In this document: piece after piece, positions 10,106 to 63,340 of the stretch
How the letters are laid out: every line of letters begins with the position of its first letter
How positions within the stretch are numbered: position 1 is the stretch's first letter
From: a virus
Taxonomy: Duplodnaviria; Heunggongvirae; Uroviricota; Caudoviricetes
Length of the DNA stretch: 64,000 nucleotides
IMG/VR virus record: IMGVR_UViG_3300028854_000008
Span: 63,374-127,373 of that record
Direction: 5' to 3' (one strand)
Program-made: the position numbers and the translations under genes
The notes under the pieces: model-generated
Told to the model about the DNA's origin: nothing
The model's database searches: none
What the model saw: only the letters and a program-made list of their open reading frames with translations

Positions 10106-10315
10106 ATGACGAACAAAGAATTTGTTCAATCACTATATCCGCAAGCATATTGTATTCATGCAACGTGGCTTCCTTTTAAATCGTATGTAATATGGTGTGT
10201 TAATTTTAATAATTATCTCCATAATATGACAAATTATTGCTCAACTGAAAATGATGCATGGAAACAAGCGGCAATAAAAATTCATGAAAAATTAATTCAA
10301 AAATTAGAAAAATAA
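10106..10315 (+). CDS. hypothetical protein
   Basis: In-frame ATG inside ORF-track ORF 10064..10315, downstream of tRNA. Confidence 0.45.
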   Translation: MTNKEFVQSLYPQAYCIHATWLPFKSYVIWCVNFNNYLHNMTNYCSTENDAWKQAAIKIHEKLIQKLEK

Positions 10316-14975: not shown

Positions 14976-15242
14976 ATGACTAAAATAGATAATGAAATTT
15001 TACAATCAATTATTTATTCTCCATCTTTAGAAGAATTTCATGGAGATTGGGATCCTCAATGTAGGTGGGTTAGTAGAATAACATTAATCCAACTTAAATA
15101 TATGATAAAACAAAATTGGATTATATCCAAGTTTGGGATGTACAAAGCAAGTAATAGTTTTGCCTATTTTAATGGATACACAGAAGGAATTGCGTTTACT
15201 CCAGATAAAAACACTGAGCTTTTAATAAAATTAATGAGATGA
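14976..15242 (+). CDS. hypothetical protein
   Basis: ORF track. Confidence 0.45.
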   Translation: MTKIDNEILQSIIYSPSLEEFHGDWDPQCRWVSRITLIQLKYMIKQNWIISKFGMYKASNSFAYFNGYTEGIAFTPDKNTELLIKLMR

Positions 15243-16238: not shown

Positions 16239-16529
16239 ATGAATATACAAGAGCAGATTCGTAATATATATCCAAATGCAGTCTTAATTAAAGATTGTCA
16301 TAATTATGGAAAATTGGAGATAAATTTAAATTACATTGTATTACACGATGTAATTCCATCAGAAAATATTAGTAGCAAAATTAATGATGAAATAATTTTA
16401 GATTTCATGCAAATTAGAAATAAAACAGAAATACATCCTTTATCAACATGGCAATCAACATCTGAAGAAGCATGGCAAGAAGCATGGAGATTAATTCAAT
16501 CTAAAATGGAATCAAAATTAGCATCATGA
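16239..16529 (+). CDS. small protein, paralog triplet member
   Basis: IRNIYPNAVLIKD..AW.EAW...Q.K.E.KLAS. Confidence 0.5.
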   Translation: MNIQEQIRNIYPNAVLIKDCHNYGKLEINLNYIVLHDVIPSENISSKINDEIILDFMQIRNKTEIHPLSTWQSTSEEAWQEAWRLIQSKMESKLAS

Positions 16530-16774
16530 CTTTAGAAGAAAATATACAATTTGTACGAGCAATGTATCCAGATGCAATTGCTATTAAAGGAATCAGTAGG
16601 TATGCAATTATAACTATTTCTCAAAGAACACTAGAAGAAATTGAAAATTATAAACATACTGAATTAACCTCACAAACCTATGAAATTAGCAGATGGGTTA
16701 AAACCATTGATGAAGCTTGGAATGACTCTGCGTATTGCTTAAATAAGAGATTAGAAGATAAACTTGCATATTAA
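16526..16774 (+). CDS. small protein, paralog triplet member
   Basis: VRAMYPDAIAIKG...AW...KRLEDKLAY; ATGA overlap with previous. Confidence 0.5.
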   Translation: MTLEENIQFVRAMYPDAIAIKGISRYAIITISQRTLEEIENYKHTELTSQTYEISRWVKTIDEAWNDSAYCLNKRLEDKLAY

Positions 16775-22992: not shown

Positions 22993-23250
22993 TTGGGATA
23001 TACTTTGTATATGAATGAAATTGAACAAATGGCTGCTGTACAACAATATGGCTGTGCAATTCAATACATCAAGAATCCAAGTGAAGCTGTGCAAATGGCT
23101 GCTGTACAACAATATGGCGAAGCAATTGAATATATAAAGAATCCAAGTGAAGCAATGCAAATGGCTGCTGTACAACAAGATGGCCATTTCATTCAATACA
23201 TCAAGAATCCAAGTGTGAATGCCAAATTAATGGCAAAATTGCTCTCATAA
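22993..23250 (+). CDS. DUF4116-type tandem-repeat protein (short, ~3 repeats)
   Basis: Repeats ..MAAVQQYGCAIQYIKNPSEAVQ..; tail INAKLMAKLLS. Confidence 0.6.
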   Translation: MGYTLYMNEIEQMAAVQQYGCAIQYIKNPSEAVQMAAVQQYGEAIEYIKNPSEAMQMAAVQQDGHFIQYIKNPSVNAKLMAKLLS

Positions 23251-24531: not shown

Positions 24532-24753
24532 ATGAGTGTTGGAAAGTATTCACCTACAATTCGAGAAATTTATCCTACTCAAGAACTTTTTGATCTGCAA
24601 TTTCATCAGTCGGATAGTTCAATTTATGACGATGATGGTTATGACATGTATGGTTATGATGAAAATGATCTTGATCGAGACGGCCATGATCAATTTTATT
24701 ATGAGCAGGAAGCTTTGCGTGAAGAATTGGGAGAGGATTATGGTTCTTTTTAA
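24532..24753 (+). CDS. hypothetical acidic Asp/Tyr-rich protein
   Basis: ORF track. Confidence 0.45.
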   Translation: MSVGKYSPTIREIYPTQELFDLQFHQSDSSIYDDDGYDMYGYDENDLDRDGHDQFYYEQEALREELGEDYGSF

Positions 24754-24970
24754 AGCAAAAACAAATAAATTAGGAGATAAAAGAACTGTAATCAGTTTTG
24801 CATTATTTCCTACCAGAGTTTCTCAAAATAATACATCATCTGGTCCTATAATTTGGTTGGAACGATACATAAAATTTCAAACTTATTTTATCGCCGAAGG
24901 TGTAAATGAATGGCAAACTTATGATAAGGTAAGATATGACGAAGCATTAATTGAAAAGTTGAGCGAATAA
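24740..24970 (+). CDS. small protein of the IEKLSE-tail family
   Basis: In-frame ATG in ORF 24536..24970; paralog of next gene (FALFPTR/FAWFPTR, IIWLE.YI, ends IEKLSE). Confidence 0.5.
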   Translation: MVLFKAKTNKLGDKRTVISFALFPTRVSQNNTSSGPIIWLERYIKFQTYFIAEGVNEWQTYDKVRYDEALIEKLSE

Positions 24971-24971
24971 A

Positions 24972-25220
24972 ATGATAATTAAATCTCGAAAAATAATCAT
25001 AAAAGTAAAAAATGACCAAATTCGACAGCGAATCAAATTTGCGTGGTTTCCTACAAGAATGAAGTTATCAATAGAAGACAAATATGGCGAAATAATTTGG
25101 TTGGAAAAATATATAATTTTTGAAAAATATCAACATTCTCCATATGATTCTATAAAAGGATGGAAGTTGCATCAGAAAGTAAGAATTTCCGATGCAACTA
25201 TTGAAAAATTGAGCGAATAA
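24972..25220 (+). CDS. small protein of the IEKLSE-tail family
   Basis: Paralog of previous; ends TIEKLSE. Confidence 0.5.
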   Translation: MIIKSRKIIIKVKNDQIRQRIKFAWFPTRMKLSIEDKYGEIIWLEKYIIFEKYQHSPYDSIKGWKLHQKVRISDATIEKLSE

Positions 25221-29975: not shown

Positions 29976-30304
29976 TGAAAAATTTAGGTAAATTCGCATT
30001 TCCATATTTCGGAGACTTTTTTCTTCTATTGAAATTTGGATCAGTAGTAGCTATATCGTGGTGGTGGCTAGTCCCGTTATTTATTCTAGATCAAATTATG
30101 GGATCGATTATTATCAAACAAACAGAATCATATTTTAGACTTGCATTTCCATTTTTCTCTGTAATATTTTTGGTGTTGAATTTAACTGCAACTATTTCTG
30201 TGCCGTATTGGTGGCTTATTTGGTTTTTTGCTACTGATTTAACGAGTGTTGGCATTGGGTATATAACTAAAAAAAATAAGAAAGATGCATTGAAAACTGC
30301 ATGA
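29975..30304 (+). CDS. small membrane protein
   Basis: multiple hydrophobic helices. Confidence 0.45.
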   Translation: MKNLGKFAFPYFGDFFLLLKFGSVVAISWWWLVPLFILDQIMGSIIIKQTESYFRLAFPFFSVIFLVLNLTATISVPYWWLIWFFATDLTSVGIGYITKKNKKDALKTA

Positions 30305-30558
30305 CTAGCACTCCACAACAAAGACTTGAAAAATCCAAAAAGTTGCTTTCGATATTAATCGGAGACAATAAAGAATACCTGTTCAGACGAAGACCAAGAA
30401 CTCTTCCTTCTGGCATGAATTTTACTAACCATGAATGGCTTGCTATTAATATGGCTCGTACAGCTACAAACAATATATCAATTAAAACCATATTTGACTT
30501 AGAAGAAATGGTCGAAAAATATAAAAATCCTTTACTTATGGTAAAGTTGGAGAGTTAA
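30301..30558 (+). CDS. hypothetical protein
   Basis: ORF track. Confidence 0.4.
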   Translation: MTSTPQQRLEKSKKLLSILIGDNKEYLFRRRPRTLPSGMNFTNHEWLAINMARTATNNISIKTIFDLEEMVEKYKNPLLMVKLES

Positions 30559-35003: not shown

Positions 35004-35192
35004 ATGTTACTTTCAATTTTGAAACATTTACCAATATCTATTTTTATAAGTATATCACTATTATGCCAGAATACTTTGATTTTCAGTATATTGGTATTTT
35101 TATTAATTTGTTTATGTAGTATGTGGTTTTTCTTAGCGTATAAGTTTATTAAATTTCCTTTATTCAAAGCGACTATGTATGAAAAATACTAA
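35004..35192 (+). CDS. hypothetical small membrane peptide
   Basis: ORF track; very hydrophobic; weak. Confidence 0.3.
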   Translation: MLLSILKHLPISIFISISLLCQNTLIFSILVFLLICLCSMWFFLAYKFIKFPLFKATMYEKY

Positions 35193-36456
35193 TCTAGATA
35201 TTAAATGTATTTTCTGTGGCAAAACTAGGGCCGAAAGTTCCAAAATTCTCGTGAGTGGAGAATTTTCAATTTGTGATAAATGTGTGTTACTTTTCAATGG
35301 TCTTTTAGAAAATAGTAAACCTTCAGAAAAAAAAGCTAAAGAGAAAGAAATTAAGCAAGAATCTGAATTAATATCTGAGGAAATTATTCCTCAATTAAAT
35401 TCCATTGAAATTAAAAAATTTCTTGATAAGAATGTTATTGGGCAAGAAGAAGCAAAAATTGCATTGAGCGTTAGTATAGTAAATCACTATAAAAGAATGC
35501 TATATGAAACAACTAATTATACACAATTAGACAAAAGTAATTTAATTATCACTGGACCGAGCGGAAGTGGAAAATCTCTTCTCATTAAAACAATTTCTAA
35601 ATTTTTAAATGTTCCCTTCGTATCAATAGATGCTACTACATTGACCGAAGCTGGTTATATTGGAGAAAATGTAGACACTATCATTTCTCGGCTTCTTGCT
35701 AATGCAGATGGTGATATTGAAGCTGCTCAACAAGGAATTGTTTTTATTGATGAAATAGATAAAATTGCCACTGGAAAAACTAGAAGTAGCACAAGCGACA
35801 AACATGTATCTGGAGTTCAAGCTGCATTATTAAAAATGGTAGAAGGATCTATTGTAAGAATTCCATCGCCTTCAATTAAAAAATCATTTATTCCCCAATT
35901 AGTCGAAGTTGATACAACAAATATATTGTTCATTTGCGGCGGGGCATTTGAGGGATTAAATGAAATAGTTATTAATAGATTGAAAAAGAAATCAGGAATG
36001 GGGTTTACTGATGCTCCTATAAATAATAAAACTTTAGAAACAGAATATTCTACAGAAGATTTTATTGAATATGGAATAATTCCTGAATTTATTGGAAGAT
36101 TTCCATTACATACATATACTACTGCATTGAGTACTGAAGAATTAATTAAAGTTTTAACAGATTTAGACAATAATATGCTTTTTCAATATAAATTTTATTT
36201 TGAAATTGATGATATTGATATAGAATTTACTGATGAATTTATTGCCAAATTAGCCGCAAAAGCAAAAATGAATAAAACTGGAGTTCGTGGCCTTAAAGGA
36301 TTGTGTGATTCAATAATGTCAGATCATTTATTTTTACTTCCTGAATATAAAAAACGTGGAATTTTTAAATTAATATTTGACGAAAGTTGTATAGATAAAA
36401 AATCTATACCCAAATTTGAATTCACTACATTCAAAGAAAAAGTAAAAACTTCTTGA
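35179..36456 (+). CDS. clpX: ATP-dependent Clp protease ATPase subunit ClpX
   Basis: N-terminal C4 zinc finger CIFCGK..CDKCV, Walker A GPSGSGKSLL, DATTLTEAGYIGENVDTII, sensor and C-terminal domain blocks. Confidence 0.85.
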   Translation: MKNTNLDIKCIFCGKTRAESSKILVSGEFSICDKCVLLFNGLLENSKPSEKKAKEKEIKQESELISEEIIPQLNSIEIKKFLDKNVIGQEEAKIALSVSIVNHYKRMLYETTNYTQLDKSNLIITGPSGSGKSLLIKTISKFLNVPFVSIDATTLTEAGYIGENVDTIISRLLANADGDIEAAQQGIVFIDEIDKIATGKTRSSTSDKHVSGVQAALLKMVEGSIVRIPSPSIKKSFIPQLVEVDTTNILFICGGAFEGLNEIVINRLKKKSGMGFTDAPINNKTLETEYSTEDFIEYGIIPEFIGRFPLHTYTTALSTEELIKVLTDLDNNMLFQYKFYFEIDDIDIEFTDEFIAKLAAKAKMNKTGVRGLKGLCDSIMSDHLFLLPEYKKRGIFKLIFDESCIDKKSIPKFEFTTFKEKVKTS

Positions 36457-37641: not shown

Positions 37642-38343
37642 ATGGATGAAAAAGCACAACTAGCTGCTGTTCAACAAAATGGTTATGCAATTCAATACAT
37701 CGACAAGCCAAGCGAAGCTGTGCAACTGGCTGCTGTTCAACAAAATGGTTGTGCAATTGAATACATCAGCAAGCCAAGCGAAGCTGTGCAACTGGCTGCT
37801 GTTCAACAAAATGGTTGTGCAATTGAATACATCAGCAAGCCAAGCAAAGCTGTGCAACTAGCTGCTGTTCAACAAGATGGTTGGGCAATTGAATACATCA
37901 GAAATCCAAGCGAAGCTGTGCAATTGGCTGCTGTTCAACAAGATGGTTGGGCAATTGAATACATCGACAATCCAAGCGAAGCTGTGCAAATGGCTGCTAT
38001 TCAACAAAATGGTTGGGCAATTGAATACATCGACAATCCAAGCGAAGCTGTGCAAATGGCTGCTATTCAACAAAATGGTCGTGCAATTGAATACATCAGC
38101 AAGCCAAGCGAAGCTGTGCAAATGGCTGCTGTTCAACAAGATGGTTGTGCAATTAAATACATCGACAAACCAAGCGAAGCTGTGCAAATGGCTGCTGTTC
38201 AACAAAATAGTGCGGTAATTCAATACATCGACAAGCCAAGCGAAGCTGTGCAACTGGCTGCTGTTCAAGAAAATAGTGCGGTAATTCAATTCATAAAAAA
38301 TCCAACAATTAATGTCAAATTAGTGGCTAAATTGCTATCTTAA
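37642..38343 (+). CDS. DUF4116-type tandem-repeat protein (~10 x 23-aa repeats)
   Basis: 69-bp DNA tandem repeats encoding AVQLAAVQQNG.AIEYI.KPSE; tail INVKLVAKLLS. Confidence 0.7.
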   Translation: MDEKAQLAAVQQNGYAIQYIDKPSEAVQLAAVQQNGCAIEYISKPSEAVQLAAVQQNGCAIEYISKPSKAVQLAAVQQDGWAIEYIRNPSEAVQLAAVQQDGWAIEYIDNPSEAVQMAAIQQNGWAIEYIDNPSEAVQMAAIQQNGRAIEYISKPSEAVQMAAVQQDGCAIKYIDKPSEAVQMAAVQQNSAVIQYIDKPSEAVQLAAVQENSAVIQFIKNPTINVKLVAKLLS

Positions 38344-41177: not shown

Positions 41178-41483
41178 ATGGAAGGAAACGCAGTGGTTCC
41201 TTGCCCAAATTGCAAATTTATGCTTAATGTAGAAGAAGATAAACTTGCAAAATCATATGGGAACATTCTAATGGATGATTTTTTGGCTAAAGAAGCAAAA
41301 ATCAATGTAGACCGTCGTGGGGTACTGGATAGTTCTTTGTCATTAACCTCAGAAGTGAATTTTAATTATGATAAATTTAAAATAATCATTACTGCTCATT
41401 GCGGCAGATGTAAATATGACTACCGCTTCAATCACGAAGAAAATATGAAAGATTTGATCTTAATACAAAAATTGGCGAAATAA
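41178..41483 (+). CDS. hypothetical zinc-ribbon protein
   Basis: CPNC ... CGRC. Confidence 0.5.
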   Translation: MEGNAVVPCPNCKFMLNVEEDKLAKSYGNILMDDFLAKEAKINVDRRGVLDSSLSLTSEVNFNYDKFKIIITAHCGRCKYDYRFNHEENMKDLILIQKLAK

Positions 41484-41754: not shown

Positions 41755-42855
41755 ATGGCTTTGTGGCGAACTTTTGCTTGTAAAATTCAATTGCTTCCAC
41801 ATCCAAACGCAGATAGAATGGAAATTGCTCGTTGCAATTTCAATCAACTTGTGGTTGCTAAAGGAAATTATCAAGACGGTGATGTTATTGTCTTCGCACC
41901 AGAACGAGCAATTTTGCCTGATTCTTTGAAAGGCGAATATGTAAATTCTGAAACTGGAATCAGTTATCTTACTGGATCAGAGAAAAATAGAGTCAAAGCT
42001 ATCAAACTGAGAGGAGAACCATCAGACGGAATTTCCCTTCCTATTGAATGGGTATTGGAGCAAGTTCCTGAATGGAATTCTGTCAAAGATATTCCTTTGG
42101 ATATTGACATTTCAGAAAAACTTGGTATTTCAAAGTATGAACCTCCAATTCCTTATAATATGAGCGGAATTGTAAAATCTGTCGATACTTTAAATTTTGC
42201 ACCGAAAGTCGCTCATCACGATGTTGAACAATTTCGTTTGTTCGCTGATGAATTTGATAAAAATGAAGCTGTAATTTGCAGCGAAAAGTTGCACGGAACG
42301 CAAATCAATGTCTTTTTCTCTAAAACTGGAGAAATTGGAGTGTCTAGCAAAGGATTCAATTCCAGAGATTTGATCATTGAACAGGATGCAAAGAATCTCT
42401 ACTGGCAAGCACTGGAAAATTCTGGTCTAATTAATTTTGTTAAATGCGAAATTCTTGAGTCAAATGCTCCAGAACTATACAAATCAGATGTTCAATTGGT
42501 TGGAGAAGTAATTCCTTGCCAAAAGAATTTTACATATGGTCAAACCAAACCAATTCTGAAGCTATTTCGTTTTATTGTAAATGGCAAGGAATATTCAGTT
42601 CTTGATCTTAACAGAATTTATGGAAAACAGTTCTTGAAAGATCATTGGGTGCCAATTCTTTATCACGGAAAATTTGATCCTGAAATATTTGCAAAACTAT
42701 CTTCTGGAAATGAAACTGTCTCTGGAAAAGGTTTGCACATCAAAGAAGGCATTGTTATTGCTCCAGAAATTCCGCGAGTAGCGCGAAGAGGATTTCTCCT
42801 TCTTTTAAAATGGCTAAATAAGAATTATAAACCAACAGATGAGGATTTTTCTTAA
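41755..42855 (+). CDS. RNA ligase, Rnl2-like (KxHGT family) with N-terminal extension
   Basis: Motif I EKLHGTQ (T4 Rnl2 EKIHGTN), motif III QLVGEVIP, motif IV EGIVIAPE, basic motif V. Confidence 0.65.
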   Translation: MALWRTFACKIQLLPHPNADRMEIARCNFNQLVVAKGNYQDGDVIVFAPERAILPDSLKGEYVNSETGISYLTGSEKNRVKAIKLRGEPSDGISLPIEWVLEQVPEWNSVKDIPLDIDISEKLGISKYEPPIPYNMSGIVKSVDTLNFAPKVAHHDVEQFRLFADEFDKNEAVICSEKLHGTQINVFFSKTGEIGVSSKGFNSRDLIIEQDAKNLYWQALENSGLINFVKCEILESNAPELYKSDVQLVGEVIPCQKNFTYGQTKPILKLFRFIVNGKEYSVLDLNRIYGKQFLKDHWVPILYHGKFDPEIFAKLSSGNETVSGKGLHIKEGIVIAPEIPRVARRGFLLLLKWLNKNYKPTDEDFS

Positions 42856-43217
42856 TGTTTAATATTTGTGAAGACGATTTGACCAATTCAAATTTATTAA
42901 CTTTAAATTATACTAGAAGTGGAAAAATTGCATGTGCAATTCGTCAACTGTTTAACTGGTATTGCCATATTCAAAATAAGGAATATAATCTTCCTTATAA
43001 TGATGGGTATATCAACTATATACATGCTGATAAAAATTGGATTAAAGTTGATGGACTTATTAGTGGAAATGAATATCGATGGAATATTCCGATCCCATAT
43101 AGAAATGAAATGAATATCCCTACTAAATGGTTATTTCAGGAAAACTGGAAAGAATTAATTGAACAACAAATTAAACGAGATAAAAATGAATATCTCATAA
43201 AAAAATTAAGTGAATAA
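42855..43217 (+). CDS. hypothetical protein (ends LIKKLSE, tail family)
   Basis: ORF track. Confidence 0.5.
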   Translation: MFNICEDDLTNSNLLTLNYTRSGKIACAIRQLFNWYCHIQNKEYNLPYNDGYINYIHADKNWIKVDGLISGNEYRWNIPIPYRNEMNIPTKWLFQENWKELIEQQIKRDKNEYLIKKLSE

Positions 43218-43441
43218 TGGAGAGTTTTATGATTTTATTTTTAGTAATTTTATATCTAATTTCTACAATTGAAGCCACGTATTTTTTCAGTAAATCTTGG
43301 TTATTCTATAACGATTTATATTTGGGAAATTTGATTTTTTGTTTTATACTGGGACTTTTACCTTGTGCTTTCGTTCCAGCGTTTATATTATATTTAATAA
43401 CATATTCCAAGTTGCCAGCCCTTTTAATAAAGAAGAGATAA
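43217..43441 (+). CDS. small membrane protein
   Basis: two hydrophobic helices. Confidence 0.4.
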   Translation: MESFMILFLVILYLISTIEATYFFSKSWLFYNDLYLGNLIFCFILGLLPCAFVPAFILYLITYSKLPALLIKKR

Positions 43442-43764
43442 TGATTCCAGACGAATTAACGAGAGCATTACAATTGGTGGGGAAAGATCATCAATTAATT
43501 AATAACGAAGTTTCTATAATTTATAAAAAATTTCAAGAACTCAAATTGAAAATTTTGGGATATTCATGGAACAATAAATGTGTGTCTATTTTTGATGTAA
43601 TTGAATTAGATTATAATAATAAATTATTTTTCATTAATAAAAAACGTGGATGTTATTTATCATTTCCAATTCGTTGGCTCAGCGATCCAAATTGGGAAAA
43701 AGAAGCAATAGAAGGGATCAAAATTGAGAGAGATTATGCTCTAATTGACAAACTACAATCATAA
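43441..43764 (+). CDS. hypothetical protein (ends ALIDKLQS)
   Basis: ATG immediately after previous stop. Confidence 0.5.
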   Translation: MIPDELTRALQLVGKDHQLINNEVSIIYKKFQELKLKILGYSWNNKCVSIFDVIELDYNNKLFFINKKRGCYLSFPIRWLSDPNWEKEAIEGIKIERDYALIDKLQS

Positions 43765-53029: not shown

Positions 53030-53086
53030 TAAAGAACTTATTTTCTTATTGACAAATAAATTTATTTAGGATATTCTTTATATATG
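53030..53086 (+). promoter_or_regulatory. conserved promoter element copy
   Basis: Same 50-mer as 37592 and 48045. Confidence 0.6.
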
Positions 53087-53258
53087 GATGAAAAAGCACA
53101 ACTGGCTGCTGTTCAACGAAATGGTTGGGCAATTCAATTCATCAGAAATCCAAGCGAAACTGTGCAACTGGCTGCTGTTCAACAAGATGGTCATGCAATT
53201 GAATTTATCGACAATCCAACAATTAATGTCAAATTAATGGCTAAATTGCTGTCTTAAC
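53087..53258 (+). CDS. minimal DUF4116 protein (2 repeats, 57 aa)
   Basis: MDEKAQLAAVQRNGWAIQFIRNPSETVQLAAVQQDGHAIEFIDNPTINVKLMAKLLS. Confidence 0.5.
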
Positions 53259-53316: not shown

Positions 53317-53335
53317 TATTTTAGTGGAGAAAACT

Positions 53336-55427: not shown

Positions 55428-55610
55428 ATGTATATTCCAGAAGAGATGTTTGCAATTCGTTCACACGCTCCAAACCGAAAATTTGAAATTTTTGGCACAA
55501 TAGTTTGTTTAACTTCTTCTTCTGAAATAGGTAGTATAATTGAAACTTTTAAATTTTCATCTAATCAAGAAGCTAAAGATGCAGTACTTTTGGTGAAATT
55601 ATCAACATGA
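55428..55610 (+). CDS. small protein, divergent member of EAKDFILIEKL-tail family
   Basis: ends NQEAKDAVLLVKLST. Confidence 0.4.
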   Translation: MYIPEEMFAIRSHAPNRKFEIFGTIVCLTSSSEIGSIIETFKFSSNQEAKDAVLLVKLST

Positions 55611-55825
55611 AAATTGATCTACAAGACGATTGTGATTTTCACAATATTGATTTTCATATCGGTAACGCTTGGAGAAGAAAGTTTTCTGTTGACTTATATA
55701 GAAGTTTTTGGTGTGTTAAAGTAACACATATTTCACGAACATTCCTTGCAACTAATTCGTATGTAAAATGTTCTTCAAAACAAGAAGCAACATTATTGGC
55801 ATTAGAATGCTCTTTATCAGAATAG
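55607..55825 (+). CDS. small protein (tail-family-like)
   Basis: ATGA overlap; ends KQEATLLALECSLSE. Confidence 0.4.
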   Translation: MKIDLQDDCDFHNIDFHIGNAWRRKFSVDLYRSFWCVKVTHISRTFLATNSYVKCSSKQEATLLALECSLSE

Positions 55826-55834
55826 AAAGGTAAT

Positions 55835-56029
55835 ATGGAGAAGAAAGTAACGAAAGATTTCTCATCAACAAAAGAAGCATTGGATTTTATCACTGCTCTG
55901 GAAAACCAAAAAATTAATGGTTTACTAAATTGTTTCTTGAACAAGGACAAAACATATAATTGGCTTGTAACATATATCCCAAAAACAACAGTAAAGGAAA
56001 AGAAAAATGAAGATCGAAAGATTGCTTGA
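55835..56029 (+). CDS. hypothetical small protein
   Basis: ORF track. Confidence 0.4.
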   Translation: MEKKVTKDFSSTKEALDFITALENQKINGLLNCFLNKDKTYNWLVTYIPKTTVKEKKNEDRKIA

Positions 56030-56975
56030 AGTTCCAACTGGCCATATTTGTATTGCTCAAGGTAGTGAAGGGAAAATTGAATTTTTATCTCTCGGAGATT
56101 ATGGGCAAGATGTAAATTTGAATCAACACAAAGCTGTTGCTCACCAAGAAATTATGCCTTTAACAGAAAAATGGGTAATTACAGTGTCAACGCAATTTGG
56201 GTGCAGTATGGGATGTAGTTTTTGCGATTGCCCCAAAGTTGGACCTGGAAAGAATGCGTCTTTTTACGATCTCACTGGTCAAATTTTGTGTGCGCTAAAA
56301 CTTCATCCAGAAATTACTGGCACAAAGAGATTGAATGTTCACTTCGCCAGAATGGGAGAACCTACTTGGAATCCTAACGTCCTTGATTGTGGAAAGTGGC
56401 TCCATACTCACATGAACGACACTTTTCATATTCATCCAGTAGTGTCAACAATGATGCCGCGTAGGAATATCTGGTTGAAGACATTCATCCACAACTGGAT
56501 GAGGATGAAGAACCGTTTGTACAACGGAAATGCAGGACTTCAACTGTCGATCAACTCAACGAGTAAGAGTGAGCGCGACAAGATGTTTCATAACAACGCT
56601 TGCACGTTTGAAGAGATCGCAAGGATTATGGAAGGAATTATTCCTGTAGGAAGAAAGATCACTCTCAATTTCGCTGTTGCCGGTTACGAGATTGATCCAA
56701 CCGTGCTATTGAACTACTTCGATCCATCGCTTTACGTGTGCAAGCTAACTCCGATGCATAAGACGCACACTGCTCTTGATAACGGGATTCAAACGGAAGG
56801 TGATTACACTGACTTCCATCCGTACATCCACCACGAGGATGCTTTGAAGAAGGCAGGGTATGATGTGCTCACTTTCATCGCTTCCGTAGAAGAGGATTTA
56901 GGTAGGATCACTTGTGGAAATGCCATTTTAAGTGGAACGCTTCCGCTGGTTGATTATAAAGAGACTTATTTATGA
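56007..56975 (+). CDS. RlmN/Cfr-family radical SAM RNA methyltransferase
   Basis: STQFGCSMGCSFCDC (CxxxCxxC), HFARMGEP, LQLSINSTSKSERDKM, KLTPMH collinear with RlmN blocks. Confidence 0.65.
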   Translation: MKIERLLEVPTGHICIAQGSEGKIEFLSLGDYGQDVNLNQHKAVAHQEIMPLTEKWVITVSTQFGCSMGCSFCDCPKVGPGKNASFYDLTGQILCALKLHPEITGTKRLNVHFARMGEPTWNPNVLDCGKWLHTHMNDTFHIHPVVSTMMPRRNIWLKTFIHNWMRMKNRLYNGNAGLQLSINSTSKSERDKMFHNNACTFEEIARIMEGIIPVGRKITLNFAVAGYEIDPTVLLNYFDPSLYVCKLTPMHKTHTALDNGIQTEGDYTDFHPYIHHEDALKKAGYDVLTFIASVEEDLGRITCGNAILSGTLPLVDYKETYL

Positions 56976-57604
56976 GTAACTTTGATAAACTGAAGAAACA
57001 ATTAGATAAAGCAGAGGAAAATGCTTCTATTAAACGTGAAGAATTTTATGGTTTAATCACAGAAGTATTGTCTGTATTTAATTTGAATAATGATCATTAC
57101 GACGATGTATGGTCAAATGAAACTCATGTAATTGTGAACTATAGCTGGAGGGCTGCTGGATGTAACTGCTCAGATTCTATTACTCTCCCAAAGTCAATTT
57201 TTGATGCTGCTGATCCTGTTGCCGTCGCAAAAATTTATAAAAATGATCTTGATAATAGCAAGAAAAAGTCTGAACGTTCAATAAAATTAGAAGAATTTAA
57301 TGCTTTAAAGAAAGAACTTGGTGTAAAAATAATGAAAGCAACTCATCCAATACAACCATTAGTTAGCGACAAAGTTGGAACAACCAGATTTAAAGAAAAT
57401 GCTATTGTTAGCTATCTTATTGACATTGCAACACAAAAAGGCATAGCAGACATGAATTCTCTGGCTATTATGAATTTCTCAAATGAAGATCGTGAGCAAT
57501 TTGCTCAACTGATTGGATATTCATTGGACGGATTTGGTGAATTATCATATGTAAGTGATGAGACATATGATTTGGCTGCAAAGCAAAAAGTTTTTAAGGA
57601 ATAA
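56972..57604 (+). CDS. hypothetical protein
   Basis: ATGA overlap with upstream gene. Confidence 0.5.
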   Translation: MSNFDKLKKQLDKAEENASIKREEFYGLITEVLSVFNLNNDHYDDVWSNETHVIVNYSWRAAGCNCSDSITLPKSIFDAADPVAVAKIYKNDLDNSKKKSERSIKLEEFNALKKELGVKIMKATHPIQPLVSDKVGTTRFKENAIVSYLIDIATQKGIADMNSLAIMNFSNEDREQFAQLIGYSLDGFGELSYVSDETYDLAAKQKVFKE

Positions 57605-57639
57605 ATACAAGTGTTAAATAACGCTCGTGAAAGGACAGT

Positions 57640-57700
57640 ATAAAATCAACGGACAACACACCGGTTCAACTCCGGTCAGGTCCACCAAATTTATGATTCA
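57640..57700 (+). ncRNA. tRNA-like 3' half (T-arm ACCGG-TTCAACT-CCGGT + acceptor strand CAGGTCC + A + CCA); possible permuted tRNA/tmRNA-like piece
   Basis: Canonical T-arm and encoded CCA; complementary acceptor strand GGGCCTG lies 28 nt downstream, not upstream. Confidence 0.3.
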
Positions 57701-58035
57701 ATGTTTTATTTGGGCCTGTCATGGTATCGATTGACGTGTGGTTGGACTACTGACGAGCCGACTGGTGTGGCCATCGTAAATGGACACATAAACAATAATT
57801 GCTACCTCTGGTATCAATGGCAGTGCAAAGATTTTCACGTATTCTGTGAATCTCCGCAACACTGAGCTAGTAAACGCCTAATAAGCTTTACTCCGAGGAG
57901 TTGTTCCGTCCTTGTAAAAGAAACGGAACTATAAAATTTCCTTTAACAACTCAGTAGATCACTGCATATAGGACAATTTTATTTTGCATCTAGAAAATAA
58001 TGTAGATATTTCATTCTTATAGATAAGTTATCATC

Positions 58036-58218
58036 ATGAAAAAATTAATATATAAAATTCGTTTTGATCTTGGTTTCCTTTATCCATATGTTGTATATAA
58101 CTTTTTAGAAGGAACCACTATGGTTGATGACTTTCCTGAGCATGTGGAACATATAGAATTTTTTAAAACTGAGCAAGAAGCCAAAGATTTTATTCTAATA
58201 GAAAAGTTGGCAGCATGA
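58036..58218 (+). CDS. small protein 1 of tandem array, tail FKTEQEAKDFILIEKLAA
   Basis: ORF track; ATGA-coupled array. Confidence 0.5.
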   Translation: MKKLIYKIRFDLGFLYPYVVYNFLEGTTMVDDFPEHVEHIEFFKTEQEAKDFILIEKLAA

Positions 58219-58391
58219 AAATAATATATACAATCGTCCCTCCATTTGAAGAAGAAATGAAATGGATGGTTATGAAAAGATGGATATCATCACAGGATGC
58301 ATGTGTAGATTATAAAATACCAAGATTTTACAGATTTGAATCTGAGCAAGAAGCTGAAAATTTCATTTTATTAGAAAAGTTAGCATCATGA
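58215..58391 (+). CDS. small protein 2 of array, tail FESEQEAENFILLEKLAS
   Basis: ATG overlapping previous TGA. Confidence 0.45.
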   Translation: MKIIYTIVPPFEEEMKWMVMKRWISSQDACVDYKIPRFYRFESEQEAENFILLEKLAS

Positions 58392-58579
58392 AATACTCAT
58401 ATCGTATAGATCATATTAAATATAGAACAATCTTTCAATGGTCAGTTAGAAAATATTCAAATTATTCTCATCCAAACAATAACAATTCGTGGGCGTGGAA
58501 TTTATTATCAGAAAGTTTTTATTTTGAAACTGAGCAAGAAGCCAAAGATTTTGTTCTAATAGAGAAATTATCATCATGA
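58388..58579 (+). CDS. small protein 3 of array, tail FETEQEAKDFVLIEKLSS
   Basis: ORF track. Confidence 0.5.
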   Translation: MKYSYRIDHIKYRTIFQWSVRKYSNYSHPNNNNSWAWNLLSESFYFETEQEAKDFVLIEKLSS

Positions 58580-58749
58580 AAATAACATATGAGCTACTTG
58601 AATTAGATAATGGATGGGGAGTAGCTGCGCGGCAGCAAAAAACTCCGCAAGATGCATTTCTTCGTCAAGAGGCAAGAACAAATATGTTTTGGTTTTCAAA
58701 TAGAAAAGAAGCAGAAGATTTCATTTTAATAGAAAAGTTGGCAGAATGA
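58576..58749 (+). CDS. small protein 4 of array, tail SNRKEAEDFILIEKLAE
   Basis: ATGA overlap. Confidence 0.45.
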   Translation: MKITYELLELDNGWGVAARQQKTPQDAFLRQEARTNMFWFSNRKEAEDFILIEKLAE

Positions 58750-58931
58750 AAAAATATACAATCATCCCTCCACAGGAATACAATGATAAATGGATAGTCC
58801 GGGAAAGACTATATGTTGGAGATACTGAATGTGTGATTAATACCATTGAACTTAAAATTCCTAAAGTTTATATATTTGATTCTAAGAAAGAAGCAGAAGA
58901 TTTCATTTTAATAGAAAAATTATCATCATGA
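58746..58931 (+). CDS. small protein 5 of array, tail FDSKKEAEDFILIEKLSS
   Basis: ORF track. Confidence 0.5.
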   Translation: MKKYTIIPPQEYNDKWIVRERLYVGDTECVINTIELKIPKVYIFDSKKEAEDFILIEKLSS

Positions 58932-59068
58932 AACGAAAATATAATCTTTATCATCTTACAAAATGGTATGTAGAAGTATGGGCTGAAAGTTTATGCCCTC
59001 TTTTATATTCATTTGATTCTAAGAAAGAAGCAGAAGATTTCATTTTAATAGAAAAATTATCATCATGA
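58928..59068 (+). CDS. small protein 6 of array (46 aa), tail FDSKKEAEDFILIEKLSS; 3' 54 nt identical to gene 5
   Basis: ATGA overlap; recent partial duplication. Confidence 0.4.
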   Translation: MKRKYNLYHLTKWYVEVWAESLCPLLYSFDSKKEAEDFILIEKLSS

Positions 59069-59092
59069 AACTAAGAAAGAGGCAGAAAAATT

Positions 59093-59350
59093 ATGTCAAT
59101 GAAAATTTTATGCACGCCAACAAAATCAGCGAGTGATTTTGGAGAATATAATCCAATCAGAAAATGGAAAATTGAACCAAAAATTTATGAACCAGAAAAA
59201 TTTCTTTACAAAACATGGTTTGAATTAAATAGCGAGGATACTAAAAGAAACTATGGTGTTTCATTCTTACTGGGAACATTATTTACAGCAGAATTCACCT
59301 CCAAAAAAGAAGCTGAAATTTTTTCAGTAATAGATAAACTCATAAGTTGA
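59093..59350 (+). CDS. small protein 7 of array, divergent tail TSKKEAEIFSVIDKLIS
   Basis: ORF track; GAAAGAGGCAGAAAAATT SD. Confidence 0.5.
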   Translation: MSMKILCTPTKSASDFGEYNPIRKWKIEPKIYEPEKFLYKTWFELNSEDTKRNYGVSFLLGTLFTAEFTSKKEAEIFSVIDKLIS

Positions 59351-59361
59351 TAAATACTAAT

Positions 59362-60777
59362 ATGAGATTCAATGAACTATTAACGGAATACAATTCAAGT
59401 CCATCAAATTTGATAAATTTAGCATCTCAAATAGATGCTAGGGTTGGAATTGAATTTGAAATGATAGTTCCAGGAATTTTGAAGAAACTTGTAAAAGAAC
59501 GCGATAGTGATGCTGATGTTTATTGTACATCAATTGATCAAATTGTAGATTTCTTTGATCATGATCAAATAAATTCGCCTCATGATTTGCGATATTTACG
59601 AACTAGCCTTGAAACAAATTTTAGAGAATATCTTGAGAATAAAGCTGACAAAAACTGGGATAAAGAAGAAGATATTGTTCTTCATAAATATGCTGAAGAA
59701 CAAACTGGAGAAGACGAAGAATGCGAGGAGTTATATAACGATCTTCTTCGTGGAAAAAGCAGAGAGTTTTTTAATATTAAAGAAGATTGGATTCAAGAGT
59801 GGATTCTAGATAATAAATATTCTCTGGAATCTGATTGGTTGGACGATGCTGGCTATGTAACTATGGAAGAAGTAAACAGAGAACATGATATTGACTGGCC
59901 ATACTTTCTTGAAGTTAATTCAGGAGGAGATTTGGATTTAGATGATTTGGCTGATGAATTTGAATATGTAATTCAAAATAAAGTATCAGTCAATAATGAA
60001 TATCATAATCAAACCAAAAGATTGGATAGTTGGTATCTAGAGCCTGATGAAAGTATTATTCCCAGCGGGAATGATTCAACTGGCTTGGAATTTGTATCTC
60101 CTCCAATGCCATTTTTAGAAATGGTAGTTTCTATTAACAAAATTATTTCATGGGCAACGAGCAATAACTATTATACTAATAAATCTACTGGACTGCATGT
60201 TAACGTAAGTATAAAAAATGGTAAATTGCTCAACATAGATTATGTCAAATTAGTTCTATTGCTTGGTGATAATTATATTCTAGATAAATTTGGCAGAGGA
60301 GCAAATAGCTACTGTAGACCAGCATTGGGAAAGATTAATGCTGCGATTAAGCTTCATCCAGAAATGATTAGAAATTATTTAATGCAAATGAAACAACAAT
60401 TAAATAATTTTTCTATGAAACTTATAACAACTACAGACAAGTACACCAGCATCAATTTAAAAAGCGGTTATGTTGAATTTAGAAGTCCAGGCGGAAATTG
60501 GTTAAAAGAAGATATTACGGTGCTTCAATCAACCATTGCCAGATTTATTGTTGCATTAGATGCTGCATGTGATCCCACTAAATATCAAAAAGAATACGCA
60601 ACAAAATTATATAAATTAATTCAAGGATCTACACCTACTGATGAAAACTCTGATACTATTTCATATTTTTCTCAGTACGCTGCTGGAAAATTAAGCAAAG
60701 AAGAATTAGTATCAATCATAAAACAAATACAATCTAATAGAAATTATACCAAATATAAACCTACAATAGAAAGTTGA
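59362..60777 (+). CDS. hypothetical large acidic protein
   Basis: ATG in frame within ORF 59347..60777. Confidence 0.55.
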   Translation: MRFNELLTEYNSSPSNLINLASQIDARVGIEFEMIVPGILKKLVKERDSDADVYCTSIDQIVDFFDHDQINSPHDLRYLRTSLETNFREYLENKADKNWDKEEDIVLHKYAEEQTGEDEECEELYNDLLRGKSREFFNIKEDWIQEWILDNKYSLESDWLDDAGYVTMEEVNREHDIDWPYFLEVNSGGDLDLDDLADEFEYVIQNKVSVNNEYHNQTKRLDSWYLEPDESIIPSGNDSTGLEFVSPPMPFLEMVVSINKIISWATSNNYYTNKSTGLHVNVSIKNGKLLNIDYVKLVLLLGDNYILDKFGRGANSYCRPALGKINAAIKLHPEMIRNYLMQMKQQLNNFSMKLITTTDKYTSINLKSGYVEFRSPGGNWLKEDITVLQSTIARFIVALDAACDPTKYQKEYATKLYKLIQGSTPTDENSDTISYFSQYAAGKLSKEELVSIIKQIQSNRNYTKYKPTIES

Positions 60778-62857: not shown

Positions 62858-63340
62858 ATGAATGAAAAAGCACAACTGGCTGCTGTTCAACAAAATGGTT
62901 ATGCAATTCAATACATCGACAAGCCAAGCGAAGCTATGCAAATGGCTGCTGTTCAACAAAATGGTTGTGCAATTGAATACATCAGCAAGCCAAGCGAAGC
63001 TGTGCAAATGGCTGCTGTTCAACAAAATGGTCGGGCAATTTACTACATCGACAAGCCAAGCGAAGCTGTGCAACTGGCTGCTGTTCAACAAAATGGTTAT
63101 GCAATTGAATACATCGACAAGCCAAGCGAAGCTGTGCAAATGGCTGCTGTTCAACAATATGGTCGTGCAATTGAATACATCAGCAAGCCAAGCGAAGCTG
63201 TGCAAATGGCTGCTGTTCAAGAAGATAGTTGGGCAATTTGCTACATCGACAAGCCAAGCGAAACTGTGCAAATGGCTGCTGTTCAACGAAATTATTGGGC
63301 AATTCAATTCATAAAAAGCCAACAATTAATGTCAAATTAA
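62858..63340 (+). CDS. DUF4116-type tandem-repeat protein (~7 repeats)
   Basis: 69-bp repeats; tail region partly degenerated. Confidence 0.7.
   Translation: MNEKAQLAAVQQNGYAIQYIDKPSEAMQMAAVQQNGCAIEYISKPSEAVQMAAVQQNGRAIYYIDKPSEAVQLAAVQQNGYAIEYIDKPSEAVQMAAVQQYGRAIEYISKPSEAVQMAAVQEDSWAICYIDKPSETVQMAAVQRNYWAIQFIKSQQLMSN

What the first reader, a model, noticed from the sequence alone, without database searches (positions are those of the whole stretch)
58036..59350. Tandem array of seven translationally coupled small genes with hypervariable bodies and a conserved C-terminal tail (K/Q)EA(K/E)DFILIEKL(S/A)(S/A); tail recurs on other proteins and co-occurs with phage ClpX/ClpS
Each gene overlaps the next by ATGA. 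Proteins are 46-85 aa with unrelated N-terminal parts but nearly identical last ~15 residues. Genes 5 and 6 share an identical 54-nt 3' end, indicating recent duplication. Similar tails (IEKLSE, LIKKLSE, LIDKLQS, LLVKLST) end ORFs at 24740, 24972, 42855, 43441 and 55428. One tail ends ..EKLAA-COOH, reminiscent of the ssrA LAA degron recognised by ClpX. The phage encodes its own ClpX and ClpS (35179, 36517). The hypothesis is that the shared tail is a degron or targeting signal that lets a diversified effector family be turned over, or delivered, by the phage-encoded Clp machinery.
Basis: partly seen in the sequence, partly recalled or inferred. Interest (0 to 1): 0.65.

Follow-up and report, generated by a model that had tools for sequence, protein, structure and literature searches.

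The report
Phage small-protein array with shared C-terminal tag
An uncultivated ~150-kb phage carries a tandem array of small proteins whose conserved tail is the last strand and helix of a tiny fold; the last seven residues (L-Φ-x-K-L-x-x-end) also end about one in six accessory proteins from about eleven unrelated families, which points to a shared C-terminal recognition tag whose reader is unknown.

Summary
Seven small + strand genes (58036-59350) share a near-identical C-terminal ~18 residues, five of the six junctions are ATGA overlaps, and genes 5 and 6 share 61 identical nucleotides. ClpX and ClpS are confirmed.

Corrections: the tail is a predicted structural element (last β-strand, S/T-x-x-E helix cap, C-terminal helix; AF2 pLDDT >90). 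Bodies are very divergent between paralogs but conserved between orthologues, so they are not hypervariable. Two more members lie at 55428-55825, and a decayed copy precedes gene 1.

The tail is held by protein-level selection (pS 0.48, pN 0.21). It also serves as a recombination substrate: the gene 5/6 tail conversion, and a 137-nt deletion of gene 6 in one sample.

New result: K-L at positions -4/-3 from the C-terminus ends 22 of 132 window genes. Among the 124 non-family genes it ends 14, against 1 expected (P=3e-12). This replicates outside the window (7 of 32, P=7e-9) and spans about 11 unrelated families. It does not depend on codon choice, stop codon or downstream gene.

This supports a shared C-terminal signal. 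The link to ClpX is untested, and ClpS is irrelevant to C-termini. The family is an orphan with no Pfam, PDB or bacterial-genome relatives.

The parts
57936..58035 (+). Decayed 'gene 0': remnant of an upstream family member; its tail remnant is at 57982-58035 and runs into the ATGA start of gene 1
   Evidence: Repeat family D1 includes 57982-58050 at 65% identity to the tail repeat. The related contig L002 has an intact 52-aa member at the same place, between the tmRNA and the gene 1 orthologue.
58036..58218 (+). Gene 1 (60 aa), tail ..FKTEQEAKDFILIEKLAA
   Evidence: Orthologue at L002 767-952: body 57% identical, tail 61%.
58215..58391 (+). Gene 2 (58 aa), tail ..FESEQEAENFILLEKLAS
   Evidence: Its body is related to gene 5: 58-nt repeat D4 at 71% and a BLAST cluster.
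58388..58579 (+). Gene 3 (63 aa), tail ..FETEQEAKDFVLIEKLSS
58576..58749 (+). Gene 4 (57 aa), tail ..FSNRKEAEDFILIEKLAE
58746..58931 (+). Gene 5 (61 aa), tail ..FDSKKEAEDFILIEKLSS; the member that was modelled
   Evidence: AF2 pLDDT 80, pTM 0.61; strands 3-7, 16-24, 27-29, 41-44 and helix 47-60; tail blocks at pLDDT 91-93.
58928..59068 (+). Gene 6 (46 aa); its last 58 coding nt are identical to those of gene 5; absent from one population variant
   Evidence: The orthologue at L002 1137-1277 has a different tail (..DTEEEAKNFILIEKLSI), so the window copy was converted by, or recombined with, gene 5.
58874..58934 (+). First copy of the exact 61-nt repeat (end of gene 5 and start of gene 6)
59011..59071 (+). 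Second copy of the exact 61-nt repeat (end of gene 6); the deletion in L006 has its junction inside these repeats
   Evidence: L006 lacks exactly 137 nt, one repeat period, and is otherwise identical.
59069..59092 (+). Spacer between genes 6 and 7 holding a partial tail scar (aagaaagaggcagaaaaatt, 17/20 identical to the start of the tail repeat aagaaagaagcagaagattt)
   Evidence: Read directly from the sequence.
59093..59350 (+). Gene 7 (85 aa), the most divergent array member, tail ..FTSKKEAEIFSVIDKLIS
   Evidence: Orthologue P0012. It lacks the N-terminal body signature.
55428..55610 (+). Member 8 (60 aa), second locus, tail ..FSSNQEAKDAVLLVKLST
   Evidence: Family HMM E=7e-5. Orthologue at L014 500-682. 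In L014 this locus has five ATGA-coupled members.
55607..55825 (+). Member 9 (72 aa), divergent, tail ..CSSKQEATLLALECSLSE (no K at -4)
   Evidence: Found by the broad family profile as P0023, E=5e-8. Orthologue at L014 1291-1527.
10106..10315 (+). Non-family protein ending ..KLIQKLEK (family F2, 'KEFVxSIYP')
14976..15242 (+). Non-family protein ending ..ELLIKLMR
16239..16529 (+). F2 protein ending ..KMESKLAS, ATGA-coupled to the next gene
16526..16774 (+). F2 protein ending ..RLEDKLAY
   Evidence: The AF2 model is poor (pLDDT 53) but places a C-terminal helix at 61-81 of 82.
23011..23250 (+). DUF4116-like repeat protein ending ..KLMAKLLS
24626..24970 (+). Protein ending ..ALIEKLSE (start uncertain); paralog of the next gene
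24972..25220 (+). Protein ending ..ATIEKLSE
30301..30558 (+). Protein ending ..LLMVKLES
37642..38343 (+). DUF4116 repeat protein (233 aa) ending ..KLVAKLLS
41178..41483 (+). Zinc-ribbon-like protein ending ..ILIQKLAK
42855..43217 (+). Protein ending ..YLIKKLSE
43441..43764 (+). Protein ending ..ALIDKLQS
53084..53257 (+). DUF4116-like protein ending ..KLMAKLLS
35179..36456 (+). Phage ClpX, a candidate (untested) reader of the C-terminal tag
   Evidence: NCBIfam ClpX equivalog, 409 bits against a cut-off of 359. Compared with E. coli ClpX: zinc-finger cysteines kept, pore-1 GYIG, IGF->MGF, RKH->KKS.

Best explanation
SHOWN. The array is an old, tandemly amplified, phage-specific family of small single-domain proteins. 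The 'tail' is the best-conserved part of the domain: the last beta-strand (Phi-x-F), a helix N-capping box (S/T-x-x-E-A) and a 14-residue C-terminal helix. It is maintained by purifying selection on the protein. Paralog bodies have diverged almost beyond recognition, but each is conserved in its orthologue. Because neighbouring genes carry 50-60 nt of similar DNA at their 3' ends, the array gains, loses and converts members by recombination between tails.

INFERRED. The last seven residues of that helix (L-[I/L/M]-x-K-L-x-x-COOH) are one instance of a C-terminus-anchored motif. This phage places it on about one in six of its accessory small proteins, from about 11 unrelated families. The most likely meaning is a common recognition tag: a short amphipathic terminal helix, with a hydrophobic face at -7, -6 and -3 and a basic residue at -4, read by one shared partner at a fixed distance from the free C-terminus. 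The tag would tie many different small proteins, each with its own body and presumably its own target, to the same machine. The phage's own ClpX is the leading candidate, and a virion or other hub protein is the alternative.

For: Selection: tail pS 0.48 against pN 0.21 among paralogs. Orthologue body and tail both evolve at ordinary rates.

Array dynamics: a 61-nt exact repeat and a 137-nt indel, a decayed gene 0, and copy number of 2 against 5 at the second locus in a relative.

Shared tag:
- KL at -4/-3 in 14/124 non-family genes against 1.0 expected, P=3e-12, the top of 765 dipeptide-by-offset tests.
- L at -7 in 18/22.
- K and L codons in genome-wide proportions; stop codons TAA 11, TGA 10, TAG 1.
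- Next gene from -4 to +302 nt away.
- Replicated in new sequence of the same genome, 7/32, P=7e-9.
- 17 BLAST clusters, about 11 independent families, of 127, P<1e-8.
- F1 and F2 are not homologous (hhalign probability 3%).
- K/R-L kept in the divergent relatives L001, L013 and L014.
- Controls are negative: Atu_ph07, spurious ORFs, and six distant amidoligase-carrying phages.

Precedent: C-terminus-anchored signals on many unrelated proteins, Lon degron (PMC11986505).
Against: - No reader has been identified and no interaction tested.
- In the only confident model the heptad is helical up to the penultimate residue, and its hydrophobic residues may simply pack on the protein's own sheet.
- Positions -1 and -2 vary, which is unusual for signals read through the terminal carboxylate.
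- The motif was discovered and replicated in one clonal genome plus short contigs of a few relatives.
- My gene set for the window is a simple greedy ORF set.
- The common fold is modelled for one member only, and genes 7 and 8 lack the body signature.
Confidence: 0.55

Rival explanations
1. ClpX degron or ClpX-tethering tail. The heptad is read by the phage ClpX in one of two ways: in the pore as an ssrA-like L-small-small-COOH degron, giving timed destruction of accessory proteins; or by the zinc-finger N-domain, as with the SspB XB tail, so that the small proteins act as adaptors that deliver bound targets.
For: A bona fide ClpX is encoded. It has an intact N-domain, a ClpP-docking MGF loop and an altered RKH loop, KKS for RKH. 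In E. coli that loop helps set ssrA specificity (own knowledge). The motif is locked to the C-terminus with L at -3 and mostly S/A at -2 and S/E/K at -1, loosely like L-A-A. A phage tmRNA is encoded immediately upstream of the array, and its tags also have an aliphatic residue at -3 (..LVNA..EIAA in L002).
Against: - Only 1 of 9 members ends LAA, and the terminal residues are the least conserved and include E, K, T, Q and R.
- The heptad is predicted helical, not an exposed tail.
- No ClpP was found near ClpX.
- ClpX is 22 kb away with no synteny to the array.
- Atu_ph07, another phage that encodes ClpX, shows no KLxx enrichment.
- ClpS is an N-degron adaptor and is irrelevant.
Confidence: 0.2
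2. Purely structural. The tail is only the C-terminal helix of each small fold. The KLxx ending of other families reflects convergent helix-end preferences or very remote common ancestry, with no shared reader.
For: The helix with capping box is the best-predicted element of the model. The heptad's hydrophobic spacing (i, i+1, i+4) suits packing on a sheet. The F2 model also ends in a long helix (low confidence).
Against: - There is exact register to the C-terminus in about 11 families, including DUF4116 repeat, zinc-ribbon and all-unknown proteins.
- F1 and F2 are not homologous.
- The exposed K at -4 is conserved, with R as the only substitute seen in relatives.
- No comparable enrichment appears in control phages or spurious ORFs.
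Confidence: 0.15
3. Virion-packaging signal. The heptad targets accessory proteins to the capsid interior for co-injection, analogous to the T4 internal-protein capsid-targeting sequence or to encapsulin cargo-loading peptides.
For: A polymorphic cluster of small genes sharing a short terminal peptide is the T4 internal-protein pattern (own knowledge). C-terminal cargo peptides that bind HK97-fold shells exist in encapsulins (own knowledge).
Against: The tagged genes lie in a tRNA, RNA-repair and host-takeover block, not near structural genes. About 29 tagged proteins would be a very large cargo set. The motif resembles neither the T4 signal, which is N-terminal and cleaved, nor encapsulin peptides, which are G/S/L-rich and extended.
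Confidence: 0.07
4. DNA- or translation-level element. The conserved 3' end exists as a recombination module or as the translation-initiation region of the overlapping downstream gene, and the protein motif is a by-product.
For: Tails do act as recombination substrates. Five junctions are ATGA overlaps.
Against: - There is substantial synonymous divergence in the tails, pS 0.48.
- K and L codons are used in genome-wide proportions.
- The motif keeps its distance to its own stop codon, not to the next start (-4 to +302 nt), with TAA or TGA stops.
- The genome uses ordinary SD-like sites, 56% of genes against 17% of control positions.
Confidence: 0.03
5. RiPP-like precursor array. The small ORFs are precursor peptides with a conserved C-terminal recognition ('follower') sequence, modified by the neighbouring radical-SAM protein and amidoligase.
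For: Tandem small ORFs have one conserved and one variable part. A CxxxCxxC protein lies at 56007-56975 and an Amidoligase_2 protein at 59362-60777.
Against: - The proteins are predicted to fold.
- The bodies are conserved between orthologues, and there are no conserved Cys or modifiable core residues.
- The radical-SAM protein resembles RlmN/Cfr RNA methyltransferases and occurs in many phages without the array.
- Amidoligase homologues occur in six distant phages with no family member and no KLxx enrichment.
Confidence: 0.02

Closest known systems
T4-type internal proteins (polymorphic IP locus with a capsid-targeting sequence); own knowledge
   Same: A hyperplastic cluster of small genes whose products share one short, conserved terminal peptide while the rest of each protein differs. 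Copy number and content vary between related phages.
   Different: The T4 signal is N-terminal, is cleaved by the prohead protease and targets the capsid. Here the shared element is C-terminal and part of a helix, its function is unknown, and it also occurs on many proteins outside the cluster.
C-terminus-anchored AAA+ protease degrons: ssrA tag / ClpX C-motif 1 (own knowledge) and the Lon x-L/I-L/I/V-H-COOH degron (PMC11986505)
   Same: A short motif in fixed register with the free C-terminus, present on many unrelated proteins (2-9% of ORFs for Lon), with an aliphatic residue near position -3.
   Different: In those degrons the last one to three residues are the most conserved and the tag is accessible. 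Here -1 and -2 vary, -3 and -4 are fixed, the motif is predicted helical, and no proteolysis has been shown.
SspB-type adaptor tail (XB motif, LRVVK-COOH) binding the ClpX zinc-finger N-domain; own knowledge
   Same: A small protein with a variable substrate-binding body and a short hydrophobic and basic peptide at the extreme C-terminus that tethers it to ClpX. The phage ClpX keeps the N-domain.
   Different: The sequence differs (L-Phi-x-K-L-x-x against L-R-V-V-K). SspB's tail follows a long flexible linker. No binding data exist.
Encapsulin cargo-loading peptides; own knowledge
   Same: A C-terminal peptide shared by unrelated cargo proteins that docks on one partner, an HK97-fold shell.
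   Different: Those peptides are Gly/Ser/Leu-rich, extended and preceded by disordered linkers. There is no evidence that the tagged proteins are packaged.
UPF0339/YegP (DUF1508), AP2 and RNase H1 N-terminal (Cauli_VI) small domains

Membership tests
ssrA-like ClpX C-terminal degron (C-motif 1) | Last three residues L-A-A-like (non-polar or small) and conserved, read together with the alpha-carboxylate | tested here: not met
   L at -3 is invariant in 28/28, but -2 and -1 are the least conserved positions (AA, AS, SS, AE, IS, ST, SQ, SR, SI, EQ...). Only gene 1 ends LAA.
ssrA-like ClpX C-terminal degron (C-motif 1) | Tag is unstructured and accessible | tested here: inconclusive
   AF2 puts residues 47-60 of 61 in a confident helix. 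Only the last one or two residues are predicted free. This is a prediction for one member.
ssrA-like ClpX C-terminal degron (C-motif 1) | ClpXP-dependent degradation conferred on a reporter | not testable with these tools
   Needs biochemistry or in vivo reporters.
SspB-type ClpX-tethering (XB) tail | C-terminal peptide binds the ClpX zinc-finger N-domain | not testable with these tools
   The phage ClpX retains the C4 zinc finger. The sequence is not LRVVK-like.
T4 internal-protein capsid-targeting sequence | N-terminal ~10-residue signal removed at an L/I-x-E site by the prohead protease | tested here: not met
   The conserved element is C-terminal. The N-termini share only M-K-x-x-Y-x-I.
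T4 internal-protein capsid-targeting sequence | Polymorphic cluster of small genes with dissimilar bodies | tested here: met
   Array content differs between the window, L002 and L014. A gene 6 indel is seen.
UPF0339 / DUF1508 (YegP) | Match to the family profile | tested here: not met
RNase H1 N-terminal domain (Cauli_VI, PF01693) | Score above the Pfam gathering threshold | tested here: not met
   Best score 16.8 bits against a cut-off of 21, in 2 of 28 members; the match rests on F-x-S-x-x-E-A-x-x-F.
RiPP precursor peptides | Unstructured precursor with a hypervariable core and a recognition sequence, plus a dedicated maturase | tested here: not met
   The proteins are predicted folded. Bodies are conserved in orthologues. 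The neighbouring radical-SAM protein is RlmN/Cfr-like. The amidoligase occurs without the family elsewhere.
Translationally coupled paralog array of a phage accessory ('hyperplastic') region | Same-strand tandem paralogs with overlapping stop and start codons, and copy-number variation between relatives | tested here: met
   Five ATGA junctions. Relatives carry different sets. Indel and conversion are seen. The family is absent from 185,579 bacterial and archaeal genomes.

The most novel reading that the evidence does not exclude
The phage runs a private C-terminal 'address code'. It marks a large set of its accessory small proteins, about 18% of genes in a ~70-kb block from about 11 unrelated families, with a terminal helical tag, Phi-Phi-x-K-L-x-x-COOH. 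Its own ClpX, whose RKH specificity loops are changed to KKS, reads the tag. The outcome is either timed destruction of these proteins or their use as a diversified set of adaptors that drag host targets to the unfoldase. This would work alongside a phage tmRNA that adds its own tag. The tandem array would then be an expandable adaptor library that grows by recombination between the tags.
Probability: 0.17. Interest if true: 0.85.

Novelty: new variant of a known kind. Interest (0 to 1): 0.6.

Why it matters
Large phages carry hundreds of small proteins of unknown function, and there are few handles for grouping them. A register-locked C-terminal tag shared by many unrelated small proteins would be such a handle. 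It predicts a single reader, it can be tested with a 7-residue peptide, and it would show how a phage coordinates the fate (stability, localisation or delivery) of a whole class of accessory proteins.

The array also shows how a conserved functional tail doubles as the homology that lets a gene family expand, contract and convert.

Tried and rejected
1. Kozak-like or A-rich initiation constraint on the last codons. Rejected: the genome uses SD-like sites, and the motif does not depend on the downstream gene.
2. P0015, a 143-aa 'two-domain fusion' that would have made a tail internal. In L001 it is two ORFs separated by TAG and depends on a recoded-stop gene call. Not used.
4. Homology between the array family and the F2 family. 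hhalign probability 3%.
5. Body-only leave-one-out profiles. They fail. Only a short signature is significant, so I withdrew my earlier impression that the bodies are clearly related.
6. Amidoligase as the tail's partner. Six distant phages with the amidoligase have neither the family nor the motif.
7. RiPP cluster. Rejected.
8. Co-occurrence test with other phages that encode ClpX. No close relative exists, about 40% identity at best. The Atu_ph07 control is negative.
9. Searches for relatives and host. Scans of viral contigs, metagenome contigs and genome contigs with the family, and the tmRNA acceptor arm in genomes, all came back empty. Host unknown.
10. F2 structure. Only three window sequences were allowed, so the model is poor, pLDDT 53.
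11. Promoter and terminator scan of the array. Not above shuffled expectation.
Full report
WHAT IS THERE

The window (33.5% GC, genes almost all on the + strand) is part of an uncultivated phage genome of at least 148.6 kb: JGI contig Ga0311359_10000070, roughly positions 63-127 kb. It holds:
- 23 tRNA genes by ARAGORN, and one further tRNA match by Rfam at 7118-7188.
- A CCA-adding enzyme, PNKP and two RNA ligases.
- A PP2C phosphatase, ClpX, ClpS and a QueD-like enzyme.

No deposited phage is close at the DNA level.

Genes 1 to 6 are chained by ATGA overlaps. Genes 6 and 7 are separated by 24 nt. Gene 7 is followed by an Amidoligase_2 protein that probably starts at ATG 59362.

A profile of the family finds two more members 2.5 kb upstream: 55428-55610 (E=7e-5) and the divergent 55607-55825 (E=5e-8 with a broader profile). 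A decayed copy of the tail lies just upstream of gene 1, at 57982-58035. In the related contig L002 an intact 52-aa member occupies that place.

THE TAIL IS A STRUCTURAL ELEMENT UNDER PROTEIN-LEVEL SELECTION

AlphaFold2 with the eight window paralogs gives a confident small fold for gene 5 (pLDDT 80, pTM 0.61). It has four beta-strands followed by a helix at residues 47-60 of 61, and the tail blocks are the best predicted (pLDDT 91-93). The conserved block across 28 members from four contigs reads Phi-x-F-x-(S/T)-x-x-E-A-x-x-(F/A/Y)-x-Phi-Phi-x-(K/R)-L-x-x. That corresponds to the last strand, a classical S/T-x-x-E helix capping box (own knowledge) and an amphipathic helix.

The family is extremely narrow:
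- 18 hits at E<=0.001 among 1.84 billion representative proteins, 13 of them true small relatives.
- None in 185,579 bacterial and archaeal genomes.

Among the window paralogs the last 18 codons differ at 48% of synonymous sites but only 21% of non-synonymous sites (dN/dS about 0.33). The bodies differ at 60% and 47% respectively. The tail is therefore kept by selection on the protein, not by DNA homogenisation. The one exception is genes 5 and 6, which are identical.

THE BODIES: DIVERGENT PARALOGS, NOT HYPERVARIABLE

With tails removed, BLAST links only genes 2, 5 and 6, and leave-one-out body profiles fail. Still, genes 1-6 and several relatives share a short signature, M-x(1-4)-[YW]-x-Phi, then [WY]-x-[VI]. 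It occurs in 6/8 window members and 6/16 relatives against 2/124 decoys (P=2e-5). This matches the first two predicted strands and is consistent with common descent.

Orthologues in a related phage (L002, L014) conserve body (46-79% identity) and tail (61-78%) about equally. Their pN values resemble those of non-family neighbours. Each paralog therefore has its own conserved body, and there is no sign of ongoing diversifying selection.

HOW THE ARRAY EVOLVES

Neighbouring genes share 50-70 nt of similar DNA at their 3' ends.
- Genes 5 and 6 share 61 identical nt, while the gene 6 orthologue in L002 has a different tail. That indicates conversion or recombination in the window lineage.
- Contig L006, from another sample, lacks exactly one 137-nt repeat period, which is gene 6, and is otherwise identical. 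The array is 100% identical in at least ten samples, and several contigs break at this repeat. An assembly collapse therefore cannot be fully excluded.
- A partial tail scar sits in the gene 6/7 spacer.
- The second locus has two members in the window and five ATGA-coupled members in L014.

There are no terminators, and promoter-like matches are not in excess inside the array. It probably forms one transcription unit.

THE UNEXPECTED PART: A GENOME-WIDE C-TERMINAL HEPTAD

It holds strongly in minimal form.

In my gene set (132 + strand genes), K-L at positions -4/-3 from the C-terminus ends 14 of 124 non-family genes against 1.0 expected (P=3e-12). It is the top result of all 765 dipeptide-by-offset combinations tested. 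With the family, 22 of 132 genes end this way.

| Feature of the 22 genes | Result |
|---|---|
| Position -7 | L in 18/22 |
| Position -6 | I, L or M in 18/22 |
| Position -2 | S or A in 13/22 |
| Position -1 | S, E or K in 18/22 |
| K and L codons | Used in genome-wide proportions |
| Stop codons | TAA 11, TGA 10, TAG 1 |
| Distance to next gene | -4 to +302 nt |

The signal is therefore at the protein level, anchored to the protein's own end, and independent of translational coupling.

It replicates in sequence outside the window with independent gene calls. Seven of 32 genes carry it (P=7e-9), all in the + strand accessory block just downstream. There are none among 13 upstream genes and none among the minus-strand replication-type genes.

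After removing tails and clustering, the 29 tagged proteins fall into 17 BLAST clusters out of 127, about 11 truly independent families (P<1e-8). These families include:
- DUF4116 repeat proteins, with 5 of 9 paralogs tagged.
- A 'KEFVxSIYP' family (F2) that forms its own ATGA-coupled arrays and is not homologous to the array family (hhalign probability 3%).
- A zinc-ribbon protein.
- Several singletons of unknown function.

Divergent relatives keep (K/R)-L at -4/-3, for example ..MLKMLEQ..IVRLAT and ..MKRLES. The R substitutions argue for charge recognition rather than lysine chemistry.

Controls are negative:
- Atu_ph07, which also encodes ClpX: best C-terminal dipeptide enrichment P=5e-5, not KL.
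- Spurious ORFs of the window: 1/66 and 3/79.
- Six distant phages with an amidoligase homologue: 2/159 against 0.8 expected.

WHAT IT MOST LIKELY IS

Shown:
- An orphan multigene family of small, probably single-domain proteins.
- A tail that is the structural C-terminal strand, cap and helix.
- Purifying selection on the tail.
- Recombination-driven copy-number change.

Inferred (about 0.55): the last seven residues are a shared, C-terminus-anchored recognition tag read by one common partner. Fixed register to the free end across unrelated families is the hallmark of signals read from the C-terminus. The Lon degron x-L/I-L/I/V-H-COOH, found on 2-9% of ORFs, is a documented example (PMC11986505).

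The phage ClpX is the obvious candidate:
- It passes ClpX equivalog cut-offs.
- It keeps the zinc-finger N-domain, the pore-1 loop (GYIG) and a ClpP-docking loop (MGF).
- It has KKS in place of the RKH loop, a loop that tunes ssrA recognition in E. coli (own knowledge).

However, nothing ties it to the tag beyond co-residence in the genome:
- The terminal two residues vary.
- The motif is predicted helical.
- No ClpP lies nearby.
- ClpS is an N-degron adaptor for ClpA (own knowledge; PMC7824862).

I put the ClpX reading at about 0.2, a purely structural explanation at about 0.15, packaging at about 0.07, and DNA-level and RiPP explanations at 0.03 or less.

VERDICT

'Hypervariable effectors', the full 15-residue degron and the ClpS link are not supported, and the ClpX link is untested.

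The array itself is a new orphan member of an ordinary kind, a paralog array in a phage accessory region. I know of no description in phages of a register-locked heptad on about one in six accessory proteins. It is a new variant of terminal targeting or degron signals, and it can be tested with a 7-residue peptide.

Noticed in passing
window 57623-57935 (ARAGORN 57591-57972): A permuted (two-piece) tmRNA gene lies immediately upstream of the array: Rfam RF04321, 73-75 bits against a gathering score of 47. It has a T-arm, an encoded CCA, a resume codon GCU at 57801, the tag ATSGINGSAKIFTYSVNLRNTELVNA and a TAATAA double stop. It is conserved with compensatory T-arm changes in L002, where the tag ends ..NVDLRKMEIAA. 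The order 210-aa protein, then tmRNA, then array is conserved. A phage with its own tmRNA, ClpX and ClpS is notable in its own right.
   Followed up: partly
L018 13895-14528 (same genome, about 4 kb beyond the window end): A second kind of ATGA-coupled array: three small paralogs (69, 68 and 74 aa) of the unrelated 'KEFVxSIYP' family, all ending ..(I/L)(I/M)(E/K)KL(S/E)(K/E). Window members are at 10106, 16239 and 16526. L013 mixes this family with the array family.
   Followed up: partly
window 23011-23250, 37642-38343, 53084-53257 (also 48103-48768, 49513-49932, 62858-63340): Nine DUF4116-like repeat paralogs are scattered through the genome. Five end ..NVKL(M/V)AKLLS, where the last repeat helix is remodelled into the KLxx tag, and four do not. 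This is a natural with-and-without-tag comparison set.
   Followed up: no
window 1055-21846: 23 tRNA genes by ARAGORN, and one further Rfam tRNA match at 7118-7188. The window also holds a CCA-adding enzyme (53288-54661), PNKP (40212-41177) and two RNA ligases (41755-42855, 43828-44925). Together these form a full tRNA supply and repair kit.
   Followed up: no
window 56007-56975: A 322-aa protein with CSMGCSFC (CxxxCxxC). Pfam gives no hit. It weakly resembles RlmN/Cfr-type radical-SAM RNA methyltransferases (E=4e-10, far below cut-offs). It is 48.5% identical to a 'radical SAM' protein of Bacteroides phage Versailles and matches phrog_24834 at E=7e-101. It may be a phage rRNA- or tRNA-modifying enzyme.
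   Followed up: partly
window 31050-32159: A radical-SAM protein with a weak SPASM-type C-terminal domain (mycofactocin or NirJ-like hits, all below cut-offs). It lies close to the KLxx-tagged small protein at 30301-30558.
   Followed up: no
window 34206-34940 and 32718-33818: A PP2C-type protein phosphatase lies directly upstream of ClpX, and a GMP reductase/IMPDH-family enzyme lies upstream of that. No ClpP was found among the genes tested around ClpX.
   Followed up: no
L001 509-511: In this distant relative a TAG separates two family ORFs. One public gene call reads through it as Q, giving the 143-aa 'fusion' P0015. The flanking genes end in TAA. This could be TAG recoding in that lineage or only a gene-calling artefact.
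   Followed up: partly
window 59362-60777; L021-L026: The Amidoligase_2 protein next to the array has ~36% identical homologues in six IMG/VR viral contigs (43% GC). Those contigs lack both the array family and the KLxx enrichment, so it is not specifically linked to the array.
   Followed up: yes
window 24626-24970: The ORF has an odd Met-rich N-terminus (MTMMVMTCMVMMKMIL..) if started at 24626. The true start is probably further downstream. Its paralog 24972-25220 follows after 1 nt.
   Followed up: no
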